The translations under genes and the position numbers were made by a program. From the NCBI GenBank assembly GCA_964016885.1, contig OZ024764.1, positions 434,001 through 498,000 of the forward strand: a stretch of 64,000 nt of DNA, read 5' to 3'. Shown here piece by piece: positions 588-62,062 of the stretch. The notes below the pieces were generated by a model. The model was not told the DNA's origin and ran no database searches. It saw only the letters and a program-made list of their open reading frames with translations. Position 1 is the first letter of the stretch, and every line of letters starts with the position of its first letter. Source of the DNA: Eledone cirrhosa. Its lineage: Eukaryota.

Positions 588-717
588 GGCATACGTCAAA
601 ACGGCCGGTCTCAAAGGTGAAACTAATTTTTGACAGTTACGTACACGTTATAAGAGCTATTTAAATTTATATATATAAAATAAAGGAGCAAATAAGAGCA
701 TGATATGAAGTCAGTCA

Positions 718-2797: not shown

Positions 2798-2836
2798 GAT
2801 ATTAACAAATGGAAACTATATTTATAAAACCATATT

Positions 2837-2901
2837 TATTTCATTATACATATTTCAAGGACACCAAGTTAAATTATGGTGTGCTTTCATCAGATAAAAT
2901 A
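2837..2901 (-). ncRNA. Minimal hammerhead ribozyme motif (family A)
   Basis: Reverse strand: ATTTTAT-CTGATGA-AAGCACACCA...TGGTGTCCTT-GAAA-TATGTA-TA-ATGAAAT. Confidence 0.7.
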
Positions 2902-3124
2902 TAATATAGATCAGTTTTATAAATAAATATTGACATACCCTTAAAGAATGCGACCATTTCTGTTGGAAGCTCCCGGATAGTGTGTATCTGTGTATAAATA
3001 TGGTTTTATAAATATAGTTTCCATTTATTAATATCGTATATCTACTCCAAATACTTGTTGAGTGCTTTATATCAGTTATAAAAATATTTGCTTGTTGTAT
3101 CCCAACAATTTAAATAGAACTTTT

Positions 3125-3862: not shown

Positions 3863-4012
3863 TGCAAAAGTTCTATTTAAATTGTTGGGATACAACAAGC
3901 AAATATTTTTATAACTGATATAAAGCACTCAACAAGTATTTGGAGTAAAAATACGATATTAAGAAATGGAAACTATATGAAATAAATATGGTTTTATAAA
4001 TATAGTTTCCAT

Positions 4013-4053
<41 letters not shown>

Positions 4054-10537: not shown

Positions 10538-11080
10538 CAAGCTCCTCAAAGGGCAATCACGAAAAAGATAGATGGCATGTCAGACCTTGACTACTGGGGT
10601 CGATTAGAAAACCTGAAACTTTACTCACTCCAACGTCGCCGTGAGCGTTATATTATCTGCATGATGTGGAAAATGTTCCATCATCACTGCCCAAATGATG
10701 TTGGCATCGCCTTCAAGATACACCCAAGGCTTGGGCCCCGTGCTATCCGTCCCATTCAAAAATCTAAATCGCAACTCATAACAACAATACGGCACAATTA
10801 TTTCACCTCAATCGGCCCTGCTCTCTTCAACATCACACCAGGACACGTCAAAACAGAAACTGACCACACAAAATTCAAGAAGTCTTTGGACAAATTCCTC
10901 CAAGTAATCCCGGACAAACCACCCACACCCGGATATGTCTCCGCAAACAGTAATTCTCTTCTCGAATGGGCCATGGTGCCCAAATCCTGAATTGAAAGAC
11001 TTCGCCAGGTGGTGCTATTAAGTTAGACATGGCCTGGGCCAATACTGGCCAAAACATTTCAAAGTTATTCAAAGTTATTC
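10538..11080 (+). mobile_element. CR1-group LINE 3' end fragment
   Basis: [35 protein letters not shown]...GPALFN...FKKSLDKFL is the typical CR1-group C-terminus. It ends in a short tandem tail (AAAGTTATTC)x2. Confidence 0.8.
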
Positions 11081-11098
11081 ATATATATATATATACAT

Positions 11099-11338
11099 AC
11101 AATATTAAATAAATGGAAAACTATATTTATAAAACCATAGTTATTTCATTATATATATTTCGGGGATATCATATTAACAATATGCTATGCCTTCATCAGA
11201 CAAAATACAATATAAACTGTTTATATTGTATTTTGTCTGATGAAGGCATAGCATATTGTTAATATGATATCCCCGAAATATATATAATGAAATAAATATG
11301 GTTTTATAAATATAGTTTTCCATTTATTTAATATTGTA
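11099..11338. mobile_element. Near-perfect ~240-bp palindrome carrying a hammerhead on each strand (family A)
   Basis: Arms meet at a ~3-nt loop near 11217-11219. TCATCAG at 11193-11199 (-); CTGATGA at 11237-11243 and GAAA at 11275-11278 (+). Confidence 0.85.
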
Positions 11339-11424
11339 AATATACTCCAAGTATTTGTCGAGTGCTTTTATATCAGTTATAAATATTTACTAGTTGTAAC
11401 CCAACAATTTTAAATATAACTTTA

Positions 11425-11881
11425 CATATATACATACATATATATATATACATACATACATATATATATACATACATACATATATATATACATACATATA
11501 TATATATATACATACATACATACATATATATATATACATACATATATATATACATACATATATATATACATACATATATACATACATACATATATATATA
11601 CATACATATATACATACATACATATATACATACATACATATATACATACATACATATATACATACATATATACATACATACATACATACATATATATACA
11701 TACATACATATATATACATACATATATACATACATACATATATATATACATACATATATATATATATATATATACATACATATATATATATATATATACA
11801 TACATATATATATATATACATACATATATATATATATATACATACATATATATATATACATACATATATATATATACATAC

Positions 11882-13472: not shown

Positions 13473-13744
13473 GTATGACCCCGACGGCAGAGCTCAACCC
13501 GTTTCGACGGCTATTTCTGGACTCGAGCTCTGCCGTCGGGGTCATACTTTCTCCTATTACCCACTCTACTACCCTAAGTATTGAGTACTCTGGTCCATCT
13601 GGTTTCTTACCACTCCTCCGTTATATATATATAATATAATACTTAGGTTAAGAGGAGTTAGGTATTGTATACCCGTGTCCCATTAAGGTGTTGGCAGCAT
13701 AATAATTAGCTCTATGCTTTGGAGCAGAGCCGTACATATGATAA

Positions 13745-14045
13745 AGAACACAAGAGCGACTACAACATCAAAAGATTTTTATTGGCTTACAATGTTTCTT
13801 CCTTACGTAACCGTAGGATTCGTCAGAGCTATAAAAGGGGTTTGATTGGTGTTATGGACTCTACCAACCAAACATTCAAGAACAAAGAGTAAAGAGAGTA
13901 AATGTTCTTGAATGTTTGGTTGGTAGAGTCCATAACACCAATCAAACCCCTTTTATAGCTCTGACGAATCCTACGGTTACGTAAGGAAGAAACATTGTAA
14001 GCCAATAAAAATCTTTTGATGTTGTAGACGCTCTTGTGTTCTTTG
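13745..14045. mobile_element. Fold-back element with paired hammerhead motifs (family B)
   Basis: ~140-bp inverted arms. On +: CTGACGA at 13961-13967, stem II TCCTACG/CGTAAGGA, GAAAC-ATT-GTA. The antisense copy TCGTCAG is at 13820-13826. Confidence 0.8.
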
Positions 14046-14088
<43 letters not shown>

Positions 14089-32203: not shown

Positions 32204-32253
<50 letters not shown>

Positions 32254-32297
32254 AAGTTAAATAAAAGTCAAATGATTAAAATTTAGCTTCGTTTATT

Positions 32298-32353
32298 ACT
32301 GCTATATATATTTCAGTGACAGCCATCTTTGGCTGTGACCTCTTCAGGCAGTT
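32298..32353 (-). ncRNA. Type-I hammerhead motif (family G)
   Basis: Reverse strand ACTGC-CTGAAGA-GGTCACAGCCA-AAGA-TGGCTGTCACT-GAAA-TATATA-TA-GCAGT. The same core occurs on + at 55305-55359. Confidence 0.8.
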
Positions 32354-32721
32354 TGAATTAGTGTGGTATAGACAAGTACATATGTTGTTGAGGTGTATAA
32401 TATTGTCAATACTCTGATATGCCCAGTTCCTGGTTGGGTTGTTAATTCACTGAGGAACTGGAGTCATAAATCTATATATATATATATATATATGCAAAAG
32501 TTCTATTTAAATTGTTGGGATACAACAAGCAAATATTTTTATAACTGATATAAAGCACTCAACAAATATTTGGAGTAAAAATACGATATTAACAAATGGA
32601 AACTATATTTATAAAACCATATTTATTTCATTATACATATTTCTATCCGTGAGCTTCCAACAGCAATAGTTGCATTCTTTAAGGGTATGTCAATATTTAT
32701 TTATAAAACTGCTCTATATTA

Positions 32722-32786
32722 TATTTTATCTGATGAAAGCACACCATAATTTAACTTGGTGTCCTTGAAATAAGTATAATGAAATA
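32722..32786 (+). ncRNA. Minimal hammerhead motif (family A) inside an inverted-arm element (32493-32823)
   Basis: TATTTTAT-CTGATGA (32730-32736)-AAGCACACCA...TGGTGTCCTT-GAAA-TAAGTA-TA-ATGAAATA. Confidence 0.7.
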
Positions 32787-32824
32787 AATATGGTTTTATA
32801 AATATAGTTTCCATTTGTTAATAT

Positions 32825-49723: not shown

Positions 49724-49744
49724 GTGAGTGTCTCTGGGATTTAC

Positions 49745-50509
49745 ACCTGGTCTTTACCTGAACTTCCACCTGGTCTTTCCCTGAACTTCCACCTGGTCTT
49801 TCCCTGAACTTCCACCTGGTCTTTACCTGAACTTCCACCTGGTCTTTACCTGAACTTCCACCTGGTCTTTCCCTGAACTTCCACCTGGTCTTTCCCTGAA
49901 CTTCCACCTGGTCTTTACCTGAACTTCCACCTGGTCTTTACCTGAACTTCCACCTGGTCTTTCCCTGAACTTCCACCTGGTCTTTCCCTGAACTTCCACC
50001 TGGTCTTTCCCTGAACTTCCACCTGGTCTTTCCCTGAACTTCCACCTGGTCTTTCCCTGAACTTCCACCTGGTCTTTCCCTGAACTTCCACCTGGTCTTT
50101 CCCTGAACTTCCACCTGGTCTTTCCCTGAACTTCCACCTGGTCTTTCCCTGAACTTCCACCTGGTCTTTCCCTGAACTTCCACCTGGTCTTTCCCTGAAC
50201 TTCCACCTGGTCTTTCCCTGAACTTCCACCTGGTCTTTCCCTGAACTTCCACCTGGTCTTTCCCTGAACTTCCACCTGGTCTTTCCCTGAACTTCCACCT
50301 GGTCTTTACCTGAACTTCCACCTGGTCTTTACCTGAACTTCCACCTGGTCTTTACCTGAACTTCCACCTGGTCTTTACCTGAACTTCCACCTGGTCTTTA
50401 CCTGAACTTCCACCTGGTCTTTACCTGAACTTCCACCTGGTCTTTACCTGAACTTCCACCTGGTCTTTACCTGAACTTCCACCTGGTCTTTACCTGAACT
50501 TCCACCTGG
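49745..50509. repeat. 23-bp minisatellite (CACCTGGTCTTT(C/A)CCTGAACTTC), ~33 copies
   Basis: Highly homogeneous tandem array starting ~20 bp after the exon 6 donor. Confidence 0.95.
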
Positions 50510-50694
50510 ATAATCTTCTCCAATTTTGAATCATTTTCTTTGCTTCTTCCAAGAAGAGTGTTCCTGCTGTGAGCCAGGCTCCCAGGCTGTGGTCCTGCAG
50601 CTGTCTCACCTTATTGGGGCTCATCCAGTACCGAGCCCCTAAACTATGGTTACCCTGTGAGATGGGTTCAGTGTGGTGGCCTGTCCCTCCTCGT

Positions 50695-51935
50695 GGCGGT
50701 GCCATCCAGCACTGTGCTCCAACTGGCCCCTTCACGTAGCGGTGCCATCCAGCACTGGGCTCCACTCCAACTGGCCCCTTCACGTAGCGGTGCCATCCAG
50801 CACTGGGCTCCACTCCAACTGGCCCCTTCACGTAGCGGTGCCATCCAAACTGGCCCCTTCACGTAGCGGTGCCATCCAGCACTGGGCTCCACTCCAACTG
50901 GCCCCTTCACGTAGCGGTGCCATCCAAACTGGCCCCTTCACGTAGCGGTGCCATCCAGCACTGGGCTCCACTCCAACTGGCCCCTTCACGTAGCGGTGCC
51001 ATCCAAACTGGCCCCTTCACGTAGCGGTGCCATCCAGCACTGGGCTCCACTCCAACTGGCCCCTTCACGTAGCGGTGCCATCCAGCACTGGGCTCCACTC
51101 CAACTGGCCCCTTCACGTAGCGGTGCCATCCAAACTGGCCCCTTCACGTAGCGGTGCTGCCATCCAGCACTGGGCTCCACTCCAACTGGCCCCTTCACGT
51201 AGCGGTGCCATCCAGCACTGGGCTCCACTCCAACTGGCCCCTTCACGTAGCGGTGCCATCCAAACTGGCCCCTTCACGTAGCGGTGCCATCCAGCACTGG
51301 GCTCCACTCCAACTGGCCCCTTCACGTAGCGGTGCCATCCAGCACTGGGCTCTAACTGGCCCCTTCACGTAGCGGTGCCATCCAGCACTGGGCTCCACTC
51401 CAACTGGCCCCTTCACGTAGCGGTGCCATCCAAACTGGCCCCTTCACGTAGCGGTGCCATCCAGCACTGGGCTCCACTCCAACTGGCCCCTTCACGTAGC
51501 GGTGCCATCCAGCACTGGGCTCTAACTGGCCCCTTCACGTAGCGGTGCCATCCAGCACTGGGCTCCACTCCAACTGGCCCCTTCACGTAGCGGTGCCATC
51601 CAAACTGGCCCCTTCACGTAGCGGTGCCATCCAGCACTGGGCTCCACTCCAACTGGCCCCTTCACGTAGCGGTGCCATCCAGCACTGGGCTCTAACTGGC
51701 CCCTTCACGTAGCGGTGCCATCCAGCACTGGGCTCCACTCCAACTGGCCCCTTCACGTAGCGGTGCCATCCAGCACTGGGCTCCACTCCAACTGGCCCCT
51801 TCACGTAGCGGTGCCATCCAGCACTGGGCTCCACTCCAACTGGCCCCTTCACGTAGCGGTGCCATCCAGTACTGGGCTCCGACTGGCCCCTTCACATAGC
51901 GGTGCCATCCAACACCAAGCTCCCAAACTGGCCCC
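50695..51935. repeat. GC-rich minisatellite with 48/43/31-bp unit variants
   Basis: AACTGGCCCCTTCACGTAGCGGTGCCATCC(AGCACTGGGCTCCACTCC). Confidence 0.95.
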
Positions 51936-54182: not shown

Positions 54183-54364
54183 CTATATATATATATATAT
54201 AGTATTAGTTATACTATTTATGGTTATGTAAACACAAAACCTTAAGCAGTTGTAAGTATTTTACACACACCCTAAATAGTGGTAGGCAGTAATGTATTAC
54301 TACCTTATTACCAGTAAGTTAAGTAGCTCAATGTAAAAACATCAGATGATTTACAGAGCAGTTA

Positions 54365-54950
54365 TATGAAATATAAGAATCAAAGAACTGTTCAAAACAT
54401 TATTGTGCTTACAGCTGTTTCCTCCAAACCGAGGTTTGGATTCTTCGGAGCAATTTATTAATGCATGGACAGTTATATGACCTCCTTTTCAGCCGAGAGA
54501 CATATAAATCATATAAAGACTTTGCCACCAGATCTACCAACCTAACACTCTTATTTACCTACCTAAGTGCCTCTACCACACATATCTCTCTGCCACACTA
54601 TATAAACAAGACGCACATGCGTGCCACACATATAACATTTGCACTATATAACCACTTATCTTCATGTTGTACTTTAACCTATATCTTTGATTTTTGATTG
54701 TACCTATTAATATAAATGTAATCTCGAAGTGTGTACTGCCACTCTAAATTCTGTAATGAATGTTGACCCACAATGTTTGAATATGTATCAATGTTTGAAT
54801 ATGTATTGGTATGTCTCTCGGCTGAAAAGGAGGTCATATAACTGTCCATGCATTAATAAATTGCTCCGAAGAATCCAAACCTCGGTTTGGAGGAAACAGC
54901 TGTAAGCACAATAATGTTTTGAACAGTTCTTTGATTCTTATATTTCATAT
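54365..54950. mobile_element. Fold-back element with paired CCGAAGA-variant hammerheads (family D)
   Basis: Arms at ~54365-54505 and ~54810-54950. On +: TGCT-CCGAAGA (54866-54872)-ATCCAAAC-CTCG-GTTTGGAG-GAAA-CAGCTG-TA-AGCA. Confidence 0.8.
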
Positions 54951-55074
54951 ATATATATATATATATATGTATACACACGCACATATATATATATATACTT
55001 AATATAAATTCAGTGAGAATTGTATTTCAGCAGGTAAAAATAAGCAAAACTCAATTGTATATATACTTATACCA

Positions 55075-55196: not shown

Positions 55197-55304
55197 AGTT
55201 TATGTTGGTTGTATACCAACACCTAAGGAACTGGGCATATCAAGGTATTGACAATATTATACACCTAAACAACATATGTACTTGTCTCTACCACACTAAT
55301 TCAA

Positions 55305-55359
55305 ACTGCCTGAAGAGGTCACAGCCAAAGATGGCTGTCACTGAAATATATATAGCAGT
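55305..55359 (+). ncRNA. Type-I hammerhead motif (family G), sense to AKAP1
   Basis: ACTGC-CTGAAGA (55310-55316)...GAAA-TATATA-TA-GCAGT. Confidence 0.8.
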
Positions 55360-55431
55360 AATAAACGAAGCTAAATTTTAATCATTTGACTTTTATTTAA
55401 CTTTATTTTATATATATATATATATATACAT

Positions 55432-55941
55432 ATATTGTTATACTTTGGGAGGGTCATGTTGCCAATAAGAAACACACGCACCAGTTCCTTTCACTTCAAT
55501 TTATTATAATAAATTTATAATAAATTTATAAATTTATAAATTTCTGGTTGGTTGGTTGGTTCCACAACCAGATAGTTGTTTATATATAGTCATAGTTCTT
55601 TCGTCACACACTCTGTGACTGGGGATTCCTTTCTTTGTTTCTGTGCCTCTTTGTTCTGTCCTACGCCATTTTGTTTCTGTAGAAACAAAATGGCGTAGGA
55701 CAGAACAAAGGAGAGGCACAGAAACAAAGAAAGGAATCCCCAGTCACTGAAGAGGTCACAGAGTGTGTGACGAAAGAACTATGACTATATATAAACAACT
55801 ATCTGGTTGTGGAACCAACCAACCAACCAGAAATTTATAAATTTATAAATTTATTATAAATTTATTATAATAAATTGAAGTGAAAGGAACTGGTGCGTGT
55901 GTTTCTTATTGGCAACATGACCCTCCCAAAGTATAACAATA
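55432..55941. mobile_element. ~500-bp palindrome of Penelope-pLTR-like sequence with a family-E hammerhead in the right arm (55742-55786)
   Basis: Centre TTTCT-GT-AGAAA at ~55680. On +: AGTCA-CTGAAGA-GGTCAC..GTGAC-GAAAGAACTA-TGACT. Confidence 0.82.
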
Positions 55942-56178
55942 TCGGTTTCAACACACGATTTCAGATAAAGAATCTTGCTAAACAAATTCAGAAACGAAAT
56001 ATATATATATATATATATATATATAGGTGTATATATATATGTATGTGTGTCTATATATATATACATGTATATACTTACGTATATATATGTACATGTATAT
56101 ACATATAAATATATATATATATATATATATTATAAAATAACAGGAGGCTGGACTGGTGTAAATCCTTGAAAGGTTTAT

Positions 56179-58632: not shown

Positions 58633-58880
58633 TCTCTCTCTCACTATATATATATATGTATCATTTAAATCTATCTATCTTATATATAGTTATGTAATAA
58701 ACAACATAAGGCAATTATTCCATTTACCAGTGGTTTCTTAAAAGCAAAAAAATTTTGCTTTCAATCATCAGAATGAAAAAATCCTGGCGTATTTATTGAC
58801 GTTGGATTTTATATATATATAACAGCTTTCTTGTGATTAGCTCTTCTCATTATACTATGAATTATATATATATATTACAG

Positions 58881-59185
58881 ATAACGAGGAATCAGTGATA
58901 CATTAAAACAATTTATTAACATATGACATATGTTTCTCCGACGATCAGCTCAAGGCAAGGATCTATTATAGGTCGAACCTGACTCTGCACTCACAGAGTA
59001 CTCAGATAAGTTTATCGTTTTCAAGGTAGTATGAAGAAATGCCTTAAAAACGATAAACATATCTGAGGACCTTGCGAGTGCAGAGTCAGGTTCGGCCTAT
59101 AATAGATCCTTGCCTTGAGCTGATCGTCGGAGAAACACATGTAATATGTTAATAAATTGTGTTTTAATGTATCGGTGATTCCTCG

Positions 59186-59189
<4 letters not shown>
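58881..59189. mobile_element. Fold-back element; right arm holds a hammerhead with ~60-nt stem II region (59056-59150)
   Basis: ~145-bp diverged inverted arms. On +: AACATAT-CTGAGGA (59063-59069)...GAAAC-ACAT-GTA-ATATGTT. Confidence 0.75.
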
Positions 59190-59222
<33 letters not shown>

Positions 59223-59553
59223 ATACAATAACAGAGAAAGCTTTAAGCTAAACTCCGACTGGTAACCATCTCACTCAACAAACATTAGGTTATATGTTAG
59301 TATAAACCCAATTTAGTGTTTGGGGTGCTAACTATATGTATTTTGTGGAAAGCCAGTTGTATTATTTTATATGAGATATAATTAAAGTTAAAATATATCT
59401 CTCTTTCCAAACAATATATATATATATATAACGAGGAATATATATATATATATATATATATAACGAGGAATATATATATATATATAGTCTGCTCCGAGTG
59501 AGCATCGAGTGCTCAAACAGCATACCACCTACGGATGCATTTATTGCAATCTT

Positions 59554-59665
<112 letters not shown>

Positions 59666-59885
59666 TTTAGGTTTAATCAATACATATAAATATAAATTGA
59701 TTGTTTCTCAATAAATAAACTTCATGAACATCAGTTCAGGGCATAAATTATACAAGTTTAACACTTGTTTAACACGGCCAGAATTCTTTCACCTCGTTCT
59801 ATTCAGACCAGCCGATCATACTAATGTACATATAGATAATGTAGTGTTCTCAAAATAAATAATATCTAAATCTCATAGATTCCAT

Positions 59886-62062
59886 ATTATGTGAGGTAAA
59901 GCCTTTACTGTGAAAATACAATAGTATATATAGAGTAATGTAAATGTTATGAGAGACATTATGTGAGGTAAAGCCTTTACTGTGAAAATATAATAGTATA
60001 TATAGAGTAATGTAAATGTTATGTGAGATATTATGTGAGGTAAAGCCTTTACTGTGAAAATACAATAGTATATATAGAGAGTAATGTAAATGTTATGAGA
60101 GACATTATGTGAGGTAAAGCCTTTACTGTGAAAATACAATAGTATATATAGAGTAATGTAAATGTTATGTGAGATATTATGTGAGGTAAAGCCTTTACTG
60201 TGAAAATACAATAGTATATATAGAGTAATGTAAATGTTGTGAGATATTATGTGAGGTAAAGCCTTTACTGTGAAAATACAATAGTATATATAGAGTAATG
60301 TAAATGTTATGTGAGATATCATGTGAGGTAAAGCCTTTACTGTGACAATACAATAGTATATATAGAGTAATGTAAATGTTATGAGAGACATTATGTGAGG
60401 TAAAGCCTTTACTGTGGAAATACAATAGTATATATAGAGTAATGTAAATGTTATGAGAGATATTATGTGAGGTAAAGCCTTTACTGTGAAAATACAATAG
60501 TATATATAGAGTAATGTAAATGTTATGTGAGGTATTATGTGAGGTAAAGCCTTTACTGTGAAAATATAATAGTATATATAGAGTAATGTAAATGTTATGT
60601 GAGGTAAAGCCTTTATTGTGAAAATATAATAGTATATATAGAGTAATGTAAATGTTATGTGAGGTAAAGCCTTTACTGTGAAAATATAATAGTATATATA
60701 GAGTAATGTAAATGTTATGTGAGGTATTATGTGAGGTAAAGCCTTTACTGTGAAAATACAATAGTATATATAGAGTAATGTAAATGTTATGTGAGATATT
60801 ATGTGAGGTAAAGCCTTTACTGTGAAAATACAATAGTATATATAGAGTAATGTAAATGTTATGAGAGACATTATGTGAGGTAAAGCCTTTACTGTGAAAA
60901 TATAATAGTATATATAGAGTAATGTAAATGTTATGTGAGATATTATGTGAGGTAAAGCCTTTACTGTGAAAATACAATAGTATATATAGAGTAATGTAAA
61001 TGTTATGCGAGATATTATGTGAGGTAAAGCCTTTACTGTGAAAATAGTATAGTATATATAGAGTAATGTAAATGTTATGTGAGATATTATGTGAGGTAAA
61101 GCCTTTACTGTGAAAATACAATAGTATATATAGAGAGTAATGTAAATGTTATGAGAGACATTATGTGAGGTAAAGCCTTTACTGTGAAAATACAATAGTA
61201 TATATAGAGTAATGTAAATGTTATGTGAGATATTATGTGAGGTAAAGCCTTTACTGTGAAAATACAATAGTATATATAGAGTAATGTAAATGTTGTGAGA
61301 TATTATGTGAGGTAAAGCCTTTACTGTGAAAATACAATAGTATATATAGAGTAATGTAAATGTTATGTGAGATATCATGTGAGGTAAAGCCTTTACTGTG
61401 ACAATACAATAGTATATATAGAGTAATGTAAATGTTATGAGAGACATTATGTGAGGTAAAACCTTTACTGTGGAAATACAATAGTATATATAGAGTAATG
61501 TAAATGTTATGAGAGATATTATGTGAGGTAAAGCCTTTACTGTGAAAATACAATAGTATATATAGAGTAATGTAAATGTTATGTGAGGTATTATGTGAGG
61601 TAAAGCCTTTACTGTGAAAATATAATAGTATATATAGAGTAATGTAAATGTTATGTGAGGTAAAGCCTTTATTGTGAAAATATAATAGTATATATAGAGT
61701 AATGTAAATGTTATGTGAGGTAAAGCCTTTACTGTGAAAATATAATAGTATATATAGAGTAATGTAAATGTTATGTGAGGTATTATGTGAGGTAAAGCCT
61801 TTACTGTGAAAATACAATAGTATATATAGAGTAATGTAAATGTTATGTGAGATATTATGTGAGGTAAAGCCTTTACTGTGAAAATACAATAGTATATATA
61901 GAGTAATGTAAATGTTATGAGAGACATTATGTGAGATAAAGCTTTTACTGTGAAAATACAATAGTATATATAGAGTACTGTAAATGTTATGTGAGGTATT
62001 ATGTGAGGTAAAGCCTTTACTGTGAAAATACAATAGTATATATAGAGTAATGTAAATGTTAA
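59886..62062. repeat. 72-bp satellite (with 60-bp variants), ~30 copies, 1056-bp higher-order repeat
   Basis: Unit ATTATGTGAGGTAAAGCCTTTACTGTGAAAATACAATAGTATATATAGAGTAATGTAAATGTTATGTGAGAT. Rare variants recur at +1056. Confidence 0.95.

What the first reader, a model, noticed from the sequence alone, without database searches (positions are those of the whole stretch)
11099..11338. Hammerheads packaged with their own antisense: recurrent fold-back ribozyme elements
Seen: at 11099-11338, 13745-14045, 54365-54950, 55432-55941 and 58881-59189 the hammerhead-bearing sequence is joined to an inverted copy (3-300 nt spacer). The element is flanked by (TA)n and has no ORF. Five different families share this architecture. 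Established: Penelope insertions often create an inverted pLTR. Inference: these are ORF-less, palindromic pLTR-only units. Where both arms are intact, either strand gives a transcript with both a ribozyme and its complement, so cleavage would compete with hairpin formation. They are also strong dsRNA substrates for ADAR/Dicer. This may be an undescribed non-autonomous element class resembling ambisense-ribozyme viroid-like RNAs.
Basis: partly seen in the sequence, partly recalled or inferred. Interest (0 to 1): 0.75.

Follow-up and report, generated by a model that had tools for sequence, protein, structure and literature searches.

The report
Penelope insertion stubs with mirrored ends
These hairpin-shaped pieces carrying self-cutting RNA motifs are the common short footprint of Penelope-type jumping genes, likely made when both ends of a cut in the DNA copy the front end of the same RNA, and they show no sign of spreading as a separate viroid-like element.

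Summary
All five head-to-head hammerhead pairs are real. They are not a separate mobile class. Four belong to protein-coding Penelope-like families (three Hydra-clade, one Neptune-like); the fifth is older and no coding partner was found. Each has a tail on one side only, so none is a pure palindrome. In family 1, inverted arms begin at one fixed point (1,294 exact matches), but 64 of 67 junctions differ, and the window's junction recurs at only 6 loci, in two variants and two sublineages. Opposite-strand hammerhead pairs and inverted pLTRs are published. What this adds: the arms of one insertion share a haplotype (35 of 36 loci), resolved tail ends pair with the short end (15 of 15), and arms stop at an initiator-like motif (family 1: 18 of 90 at two bases; family 5: 9 of 17 within 2 nt). 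This favours two cDNAs copied from one RNA up to its 5' end. The antisense arm is always transcribed first, so cleavage is likely blocked. No RNA or long-read test was possible. Earlier scan notes found the architecture, end rule and twin hairpins on other DNA of this genome; I saw no note on the initiator wall.

The parts
11099..11217 (-). E1 inverted arm (family 1, Hydra clade): starts at the fixed short end (-90, counted from the tail end) and runs to about -209; minimal hammerhead 11199-11150
11219..11337 (+). E1 direct arm; hammerhead core CTGATGA at 11237, predicted cleavage after 11286; junction at 11218 lies in a natural micro-palindrome of the parent
11338..11427 (+). E1 tail (90 nt, one side only), with a small ACTC...GAGT hairpin 7 nt after the short end
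13640..13902 (-). E2 direct arm plus about 100-nt tail (family 2, Hydra-type ORF-linked in L255, L256); CTGACGA hammerhead
13904..14047 (+). E2 inverted arm; hammerhead core CTGACGA at 13961
54195..54514 (-). E3 direct arm plus about 165-nt tail (family 3, Hydra-type 818-aa ORF in L261, L262); hammerhead-like motif with CCGAAGA core 54448-54410
54498..54951 (+). E3 inverted arm, 453 nt, 99.6% identical to dozens of copies; hammerhead-like motif 54866-54904
55432..55678 (-). E4 inverted arm (family 4, Neptune-like); 12-nt deletion removes the hammerhead core
55680..55999 (+). E4 direct arm plus 56-nt tail; intact hammerhead 55747-55781; first 28 codons of the family ORF from 55918
58877..59025 (-). 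E5 inverted arm (family 5, older, no coding partner found); core altered to CTGAGTA
59028..59189 (+). E5 direct arm, beginning at the A of the parent's TCAGT initiator-like motif; long-stem-II hammerhead 59063-59143
59487..59559 (+). E5 tail, separated from its arm by a later insertion into the TA-rich start of the tail

Best explanation
These are short insertion products of Penelope-like retrotransposons, each likely made afresh when two reverse-transcriptase reactions, primed from the two ends of a cut in (TA)n, copy the front pseudo-LTR of one element RNA and the two copies are joined head to head. Shown: coding parents for four of five families; one fixed short end and one fixed tail end per family; arms of one insertion from one haplotype; many different junctions; a sharp inner limit at an initiator-like motif in families 1 and 5. 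Inferred: the element is transcribed from the A of that motif; the enzyme starts at two internal sites, each a few bases before a small RCTC...GAGY hairpin in the Hydra families, one site per DNA end; copying the first pLTR of the RNA ends at the RNA's 5' end (or earlier by ordinary truncation); the two cDNA ends are joined through microhomology. The product is likely a dead end: it has no ORF, lacks the second hairpin (which lies beyond the tail end), and any read-through RNA makes the antisense arm first and would trap the ribozyme.
For: Coding parents: 737-aa ORF with RWR, DKT, CxCX5C, C-terminal GIY-YIG-like region, CxxC and CxH, no CCHH matches the Hydra definition (PMC8557442 section 11); similar ORFs for families 2 and 3; family 4 endonuclease with CX4CxxC linker, CCHH and a Pfam GIY-YIG hit above cut-off. 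Fixed ends: 1,294 short ends and 1,456 tail ends in family 1, 11,170 and 637 short ends in families 4 and 3, reversed-pattern controls 0. Polarity: of 30 loci picked by the tail end, the 15 with a fully seen inverted arm all end at the short site, none at a second tail. One template: 1 of 236 site comparisons discordant between arms against 29.8 +/- 3.0% in 2,000 shuffles; 35 of 36 loci identical. Two separate copies: the inverted arm reaches further in 27 and the direct arm in 12 of 67 loci, and 8 of 67 share no sequence. Wall: 18 of 90 inverted arms end at -280/-281, 31 in -271..-290, only 5 in -291..-470; 22 of 67 direct arms start in -273..-291; -281 is the A of TCACT, the same Inr-like word reported in a rotifer pLTR (PMC3846280). 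Family 5: longer arm within 2 nt of the A in 9 of 17, none beyond -4; YCA[G/A]T in 23 of 28 parent contexts. In vitro, a Penelope protein cleaves and extends both strands and starts at two internal sites that bound the tail (PMC11167929).
Against: No RNA data: the start site is inferred from a motif and the pile-up only, and a pause at the pyrimidine tract upstream of -281 is possible. The wall is sharp only in families 1 and 5; in 30-locus samples of families 3 and 4 there are only loose clusters, and family 2 was not sampled without bias. The family-5 set was ranked by similarity to the window copy, which favours similar lengths. In the published in vitro assay the two strands showed no difference in start site, whereas the genomic copies are polar. 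Later deletion at the centre of a palindrome could also make arms unequal. No coding partner was found for family 5. 23 of 90 family-1 loci had no mapped adjacent direct arm, and long arm ends in the AT-rich UTR are poorly mapped.
Confidence: 0.75

Rival explanations
1. The palindromes are a non-autonomous class: a palindromic RNA (possibly circular, with ribozymes in both polarities) is copied whole into new sites by Penelope enzymes.
For: The window's E1 junction recurs at 6 loci on 6 contigs; E3 has a 98% twin on another contig with different flanks; 24 of 40 scored family-5 hits and about 30 of 40 family-4 hits are palindromes of similar length; earlier scan notes report ADAR-edited fold-back copies fixed in DNA elsewhere in this genome (not checked by me).
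Against: The 6 loci split into two centre bases and two sublineages, with both centre bases in both sublineages; repeated junctions near -280 occur in different haplotypes; the E3 twin carries alleles shared with 5-8 other loci and absent from E3, and its junction is a 4-nt microhomology; family-4 junctions differ in 21 aligned loci except one near-identical pair; no strand-polarised A>G excess in 238 locus records with both orientations (not de-duplicated) or in E1-E5; similar lengths follow from the wall.
Confidence: 0.06
2. One cDNA (or an antisense RNA, as proposed in PMC3846280) folds back and copies itself; unequal arms come from later deletion at the palindrome centre.
For: Explains the identical haplotypes of the two arms without further assumptions; junctions often use microhomology or micro-palindromes; in family 5 the shorter arm usually lacks only 12-21 nt.
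Against: A copy cannot hold sequence that its template lacks, yet the tail-less arm is the longer one in 27 of 67 family-1 loci and 8 of 67 pairs share nothing; it does not explain why the second arm stops at one exact base with its own hairpin signal; one family-4 locus (L234) appears by eye to have arms of two sublineages.
Confidence: 0.15
3. Library fold-back or assembly artefact.
For: No listed contig or read spans the E1 locus, and no long reads were available.
Against: Fixed ends at over a thousand loci, a one-sided tail, arms that have diverged with age (E5 88%) or carry private deletions (E4), and untemplated bases at junctions; raw reads of two runs from another study cross from arm to arm at a variant junction (18 and 12 reads, 2 start places each).
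Confidence: 0.02

Closest known systems
Inverted pLTR plus one-sided tail of endonuclease-bearing Penelope-like elements (PMC8557442 passages and section 11; PMC3846280 passages)
   Same: 5'-truncated inverted copy joined head to head to a direct copy; tail at one end; microsatellite targets; microhomology junctions; Inr-like TCACT in the pLTR.
   Different: Tails here are 56-165 nt rather than 30-40; pLTR-only products are the majority in family 1 (50 of 67 mapped); the inner ends pile up at the Inr-like A, which I did not find described in the passages read.
Minimal hammerheads of PLE pLTRs (PMC4209133, passages)
   Same: Type I minimal motifs with a short palindromic helix III; the paper already notes dual motifs 100-700 bp apart on opposite strands, attributed to truncated PLEs.
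   Different: That paper gives no origin for the opposite-strand pairs; it reports no cleavage by a single motif and low cleavage by dimers.
Hydra clade of C-terminal EN+ PLEs (PMC8557442 section 11)
   Same: Families 1-3: RW[R/K], DKT, CxCX5C linker, no CCHH, CxxC and CxH motifs, hammerheads, (TA)n insertion.
   Different: Units here are about 4.1-4.5 kb with a long 3' UTR (published elements generally under 3 kb); no tree was built.
Poseidon_Ac in vitro mechanism (PMC11167929, parts 1-2 of 4 read)
   Same: Two internal start sites bounding the tail; both target strands cut and extended; hammerhead cleavage not needed for insertion.
   Different: No strand preference of start site in vitro; the genomic copies here use one site per end; the paper does not explain the inverted arm.
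Animal non-LTR retrozymes (bioRxiv 10.64898/2026.07.22.740005, part 1 of 5 read; PMC7229834, search listing)
   Same: Non-coding, type I hammerhead, derived from PLE pLTRs.
   Different: Retrozymes are direct tandem arrays with at least two same-strand ribozymes; these units have one per strand at most.
L1 twin priming (recalled)
   Same: Both target strands prime cDNA on one RNA and give a head-to-head inversion joined by microhomology.
   Different: L1's second primer lands at variable internal sites and gives non-overlapping pieces; here both start sites are fixed and the arms usually overlap.

Membership tests
EN+ Penelope-like element insertion | pLTR linked to a single RT plus GIY-YIG ORF | tested here: met
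   Families 1-3 full ORFs next to the pLTR; family 4 ORF start and endonuclease end in separate copies. Not met for family 5, see next row.
EN+ Penelope-like element insertion | Coding partner for family 5 | tested here: inconclusive
   Longer copies share several hundred bases upstream, but no linked RT or endonuclease in the loci.
EN+ Penelope-like element insertion | Inverted 5'-truncated copy at the 5' end and a one-sided tail | tested here: met
   All five window elements; 15 of 15 fully seen family-1 loci picked by the tail end.
EN+ Penelope-like element insertion | Target-site duplication | not testable with these tools
   Insertions lie in (TA)n, where a duplication cannot be told from the repeat.
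Hydra clade | RWK-like motif, DKT, CxCX5C linker, no CCHH, CxxC and CxH, (TA)n target | tested here: met
   Read in the family-1 and family-3 proteins; in family 2 the linker and endonuclease motifs were seen in a partial ORF only.
Hydra clade | Groups with Hydra RTs in a tree | not tested
   No reference Hydra sequences were fetched.
Neptune/Nematis clades (family 4) | CX2-5CxxC linker and CCHH in a C-terminal GIY-YIG domain | tested here: met
   definition from PMC8557442 passages. Which of the two clades was not resolved.
Minimal type I hammerhead | CUGANGA and GAAA cores with stems I-III | tested here: met
   Six of ten arms canonical (E1 x2, E2 x2, E4 right, E5 right). The hammerhead fold is not the minimum-energy fold of most single arms.
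Minimal type I hammerhead | Self-cleavage | not testable with these tools
   Needs an assay.
Non-LTR retrozyme | Direct tandem units, each with a hammerhead | tested here: not met
   E1-E5 are single head-to-head pairs. A tandem family-4 derivative exists elsewhere (L267).
Non-autonomous element mobile as a unit | Many copies with the same junction and shared arm-specific changes in unrelated flanks | tested here: not met
Ambisense-ribozyme viroid-like RNA | Circular RNA replicating through both polarities | not testable with these tools
   No RNA run could be laid. The DNA shows no monomer repeat, and perfect arm complementarity would sequester both ribozymes.

The most novel reading that the evidence does not exclude
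The stubs are an in vivo map of the Penelope copying cycle: a reverse-transcriptase pair uses two hairpin-marked start sites on one RNA, one per DNA end, and runs off the RNA's 5' end at the initiator. That single rule would explain the inverted pLTR, the one-sided tail and the excess of pLTR-only copies, and would let transcription start sites be read from genome sequence alone.
Probability: 0.55. Interest if true: 0.6.

Novelty: new member of a known kind. Interest (0 to 1): 0.38.

Why it matters
As an element class it is ordinary. Its value is mechanistic: how Penelope-like elements make inverted pLTRs and tails is named as an open question in PMC8557442 and only partly answered in vitro in PMC11167929. 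A young, intact Hydra-clade family with exact start sites, a predicted transcription start and over a thousand insertions gives precise predictions for a reconstituted reaction. It also warns annotators that these thousands of hairpins will be mistaken for MITEs or microRNA precursors (E1, E2 and E4 score against miRNA models below threshold).

Tried and rejected
Rfam found no hammerhead at gathering score; the E-value list was swamped by miRNA models on TA repeats. Pfam found nothing for the family-1 protein and only weak hits for families 2 and 3, so the Hydra call rests on motifs. The second read lay-out on the family-1 pLTR was uninformative at the wall because coverage there was near zero and part was skipped as repeat. 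MITE reading rejected: one-sided tail, variable inner junction, coding parents. Splice-acceptor reading of the wall considered: family 1 has a pyrimidine tract and TAG at -276..-274, but the pile-up is 7 nt upstream, and a family-5 sublineage with TCAAT (no AG) stops at the same place. Extra base opposite an RNA cap: 4 of 12 arms ending at -281 are followed by C, inconclusive. Truncation at the hammerhead cleavage site: only 1 of 90 inverted arms ends there (L084). ADAR footprint: none in 238 locus records. L034/L035 and L429/L431/L432 share flanks and were treated as segmental duplications; L035 and L043 were left out of the 17-locus family-5 count. Literature: 'Penelope' with 'twin priming' gave 3 papers, none about PLE insertion by title or abstract start; two searches gave no paper on an initiator wall; most subscription papers are not in the library, and no supplements were read.

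Full report
Observation. The five inverted pairs are in the sequence. The window lies in a 3.0-Gb genome at G000:C25:434001-498000. A motif scan finds type I minimal hammerheads in the arms and at several other places in the window; Rfam does not pick them up. Only E1 and E2 have a canonical core in both arms. E3 has a family-wide CCGAAGA core, E4 has lost one core through a 12-nt deletion between short direct repeats (the same loss appears in either arm of three other loci), and E5's left core is altered.

Parents. Family 1 has many near-identical copies (913 candidates, 40 scored) and intact coding copies with a 737-aa ORF in a 4,119-nt unit. Its motifs match the published Hydra clade of Penelope-like elements, including the (TA)n target (PMC8557442 section 11). 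Families 2 and 3 are linked to related ORFs. Family 4 continues into a different ORF whose first 28 codons lie inside E4, and is preceded in longer copies by a GIY-YIG domain with CX4CxxC and CCHH motifs, so it is Neptune- or Nematis-like. Family 5 is older (77-89% identity among palindromes); longer copies exist but no linked ORF was found.

Do they move as a unit? The outer ends are fixed: 1,294 exact matches for TA repeat plus short end and 1,456 for tail end plus TA repeat in family 1, 11,170 and 637 short ends in families 4 and 3, with 0 for the reversed controls. The inner junction is not fixed. I took the first 90 of the 100 listed short-end matches, in genome order on contig C1. In 67 an adjacent direct arm could be mapped; 64 of the 67 junctions differ, 50 are pLTR-only, 29 hold the full hammerhead span in both arms, and 6 of the 90 reach into the ORF. 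The window's exact junction occurs at 6 loci. It sits on a small natural palindrome in the parent, and both possible centre bases occur in each of two sublineages, so it arose several times. The two repeated junctions near -280 also occur in different haplotypes. E3's near twin belongs to another sublineage and uses a 4-nt microhomology. Family-4 junctions differ across 21 aligned loci except one near-identical pair, and 30-locus samples of families 3 and 4 show a wide spread. No strand-polarised A>G excess was seen in 238 locus records with both orientations.

How they are made. Three patterns constrain the mechanism. First, polarity: of 30 loci picked by the tail end, 15 show a complete inverted arm and all 15 end at the short site; 3 have an inverted arm running off the fetched stretch, 1 a short inverted piece, 3 none, and 8 are unresolved. 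One of the 90 loci picked by the short end has a short end on both sides (L088). Second, one template but two copies: the arms share a haplotype in 35 of 36 testable loci (1 of 236 sites discordant against about 30% when shuffled), yet either arm can be the longer (27 against 12) and 8 of 67 pairs do not overlap at all. Third, a wall: 18 of 90 inverted arms end at -280/-281, 31 within -271..-290 and only 5 in the next 180 bases; 22 of 67 direct arms start in the same zone. Position -281 is the A of TCACT, a word described as Inr-like in a rotifer pLTR (PMC3846280 passages); the Drosophila Penelope promoter also lies in the pLTR (PMC2377424 passages). In family 5 the longer arm reaches to within 2 nt of the A of TCAGT or TCAAT in 9 of 17 palindromes and never beyond -4, and the sequence upstream gives 48 candidates against 1,961 for the palindrome (the upstream part is more diverged, so the ratio is an overestimate). 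That TCAGT is the insect initiator consensus is recalled. Families 3 and 4 show only loose clusters.

Following an earlier scan note, I looked behind both fixed ends and found a small RCTC...GAGY-type stem 5-9 bases downstream in families 1-3, and a related stem in the family-5 tail, but not in family 4 (read by eye, weak folding energies). The second stem lies beyond the tail end and is therefore absent from inserted stubs. Together with the in vitro finding that a Penelope protein extends both target strands and starts at two internal sites bounding the tail (PMC11167929), the simplest reading is double-ended priming on the first pLTR of the element's RNA, run-off at its 5' end, and joining of the two cDNA ends. 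The start site, the role of the hairpins and the joining step are inferred, not shown. Fold-back self-priming with later centre deletion (PMC3846280) remains the main rival.

Ribozyme logic. In the folded palindromes almost all hammerhead bases pair with the other arm. Because the arms are head to head, the antisense arm is made first on either strand. Single minimal hammerheads did not cleave in vitro in PMC4209133 (passages), and cleavage was not needed for insertion in PMC11167929. The ribozymes are therefore likely passengers of the pLTR. Read-through hairpins could still be Dicer or ADAR substrates; that was not testable here.

Artefact check. No listed contig or read spans the E1 locus. 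Raw reads from two runs of another study cross between the arms at a junction 7 nt shorter (18 and 12 reads, 2 start places each), so such junctions exist outside this assembly. Fixed ends, one-sided tails and arm divergence with age argue against library fold-back.

Verdict. Real, but the known inverted-pLTR footprint of Penelope-like elements: opposite-strand hammerhead pairs 100-700 bp apart are already reported (PMC4209133). Earlier notes of this scan describe the same footprint, the end rule and the twin hairpins on other DNA of this genome; a word search for the initiator wall returned nothing and none of the 16 notes shown mentions it. Interest comes from the mechanistic constraints, not from a new element class.

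Noticed in passing
window 2798-3123, 3867-4014 and 32497-32816: Three more short head-to-head insertions with a one-sided tail, from a relative of family 1.
   Followed up: partly
window 1713, 22978, 26564, 27004, 32347, 42450, 55310, 56233, 58771: Further single minimal hammerheads from several families; 32249-32375 and 55282-55408 are 99% identical copies.
   Followed up: no
L267:3950-6300 (G000:C3:80.16 Mb): Two-armed array of about 490-nt family-4 units (pLTR with hammerhead plus the first codons of the ORF), retrozyme-like; such arrays could supply part of family 4's 11,170 insertions.
   Followed up: partly
L234: Family-4 palindrome whose two arms look like different sublineages, suggesting two RNA templates in one insertion (by eye).
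   Followed up: no
L088: Family-1 insertion with the short end on both sides; could come from a template lacking the second hairpin.
   Followed up: no
window 588-709 and 925-1046: 122-nt terminal inverted repeats, 97.5% alike, in TA flanks: MITE-like, no hammerhead.
   Followed up: no
window 7772, 15641, 16907, 23019, 28230, 31643, 41499, 48206, 56385: About 320-nt interspersed repeat in at least nine copies, SINE-like.
   Followed up: no
window 10545-11085: 3' end of a CR1/L2-type LINE with a short tandem tail (class recalled from the sequence), into whose TA flank E1 inserted.
   Followed up: no
window 59220-59415 and L032 downstream flank: The same unrelated fragment lies next to the family-5 element at two loci, inside the tail here and after it in L032; likely nesting in TA.
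   Followed up: no
window 49741-50509, 50685-51905, 59884-62061: Young minisatellite arrays with units of roughly 70-90 nt.
   Followed up: no
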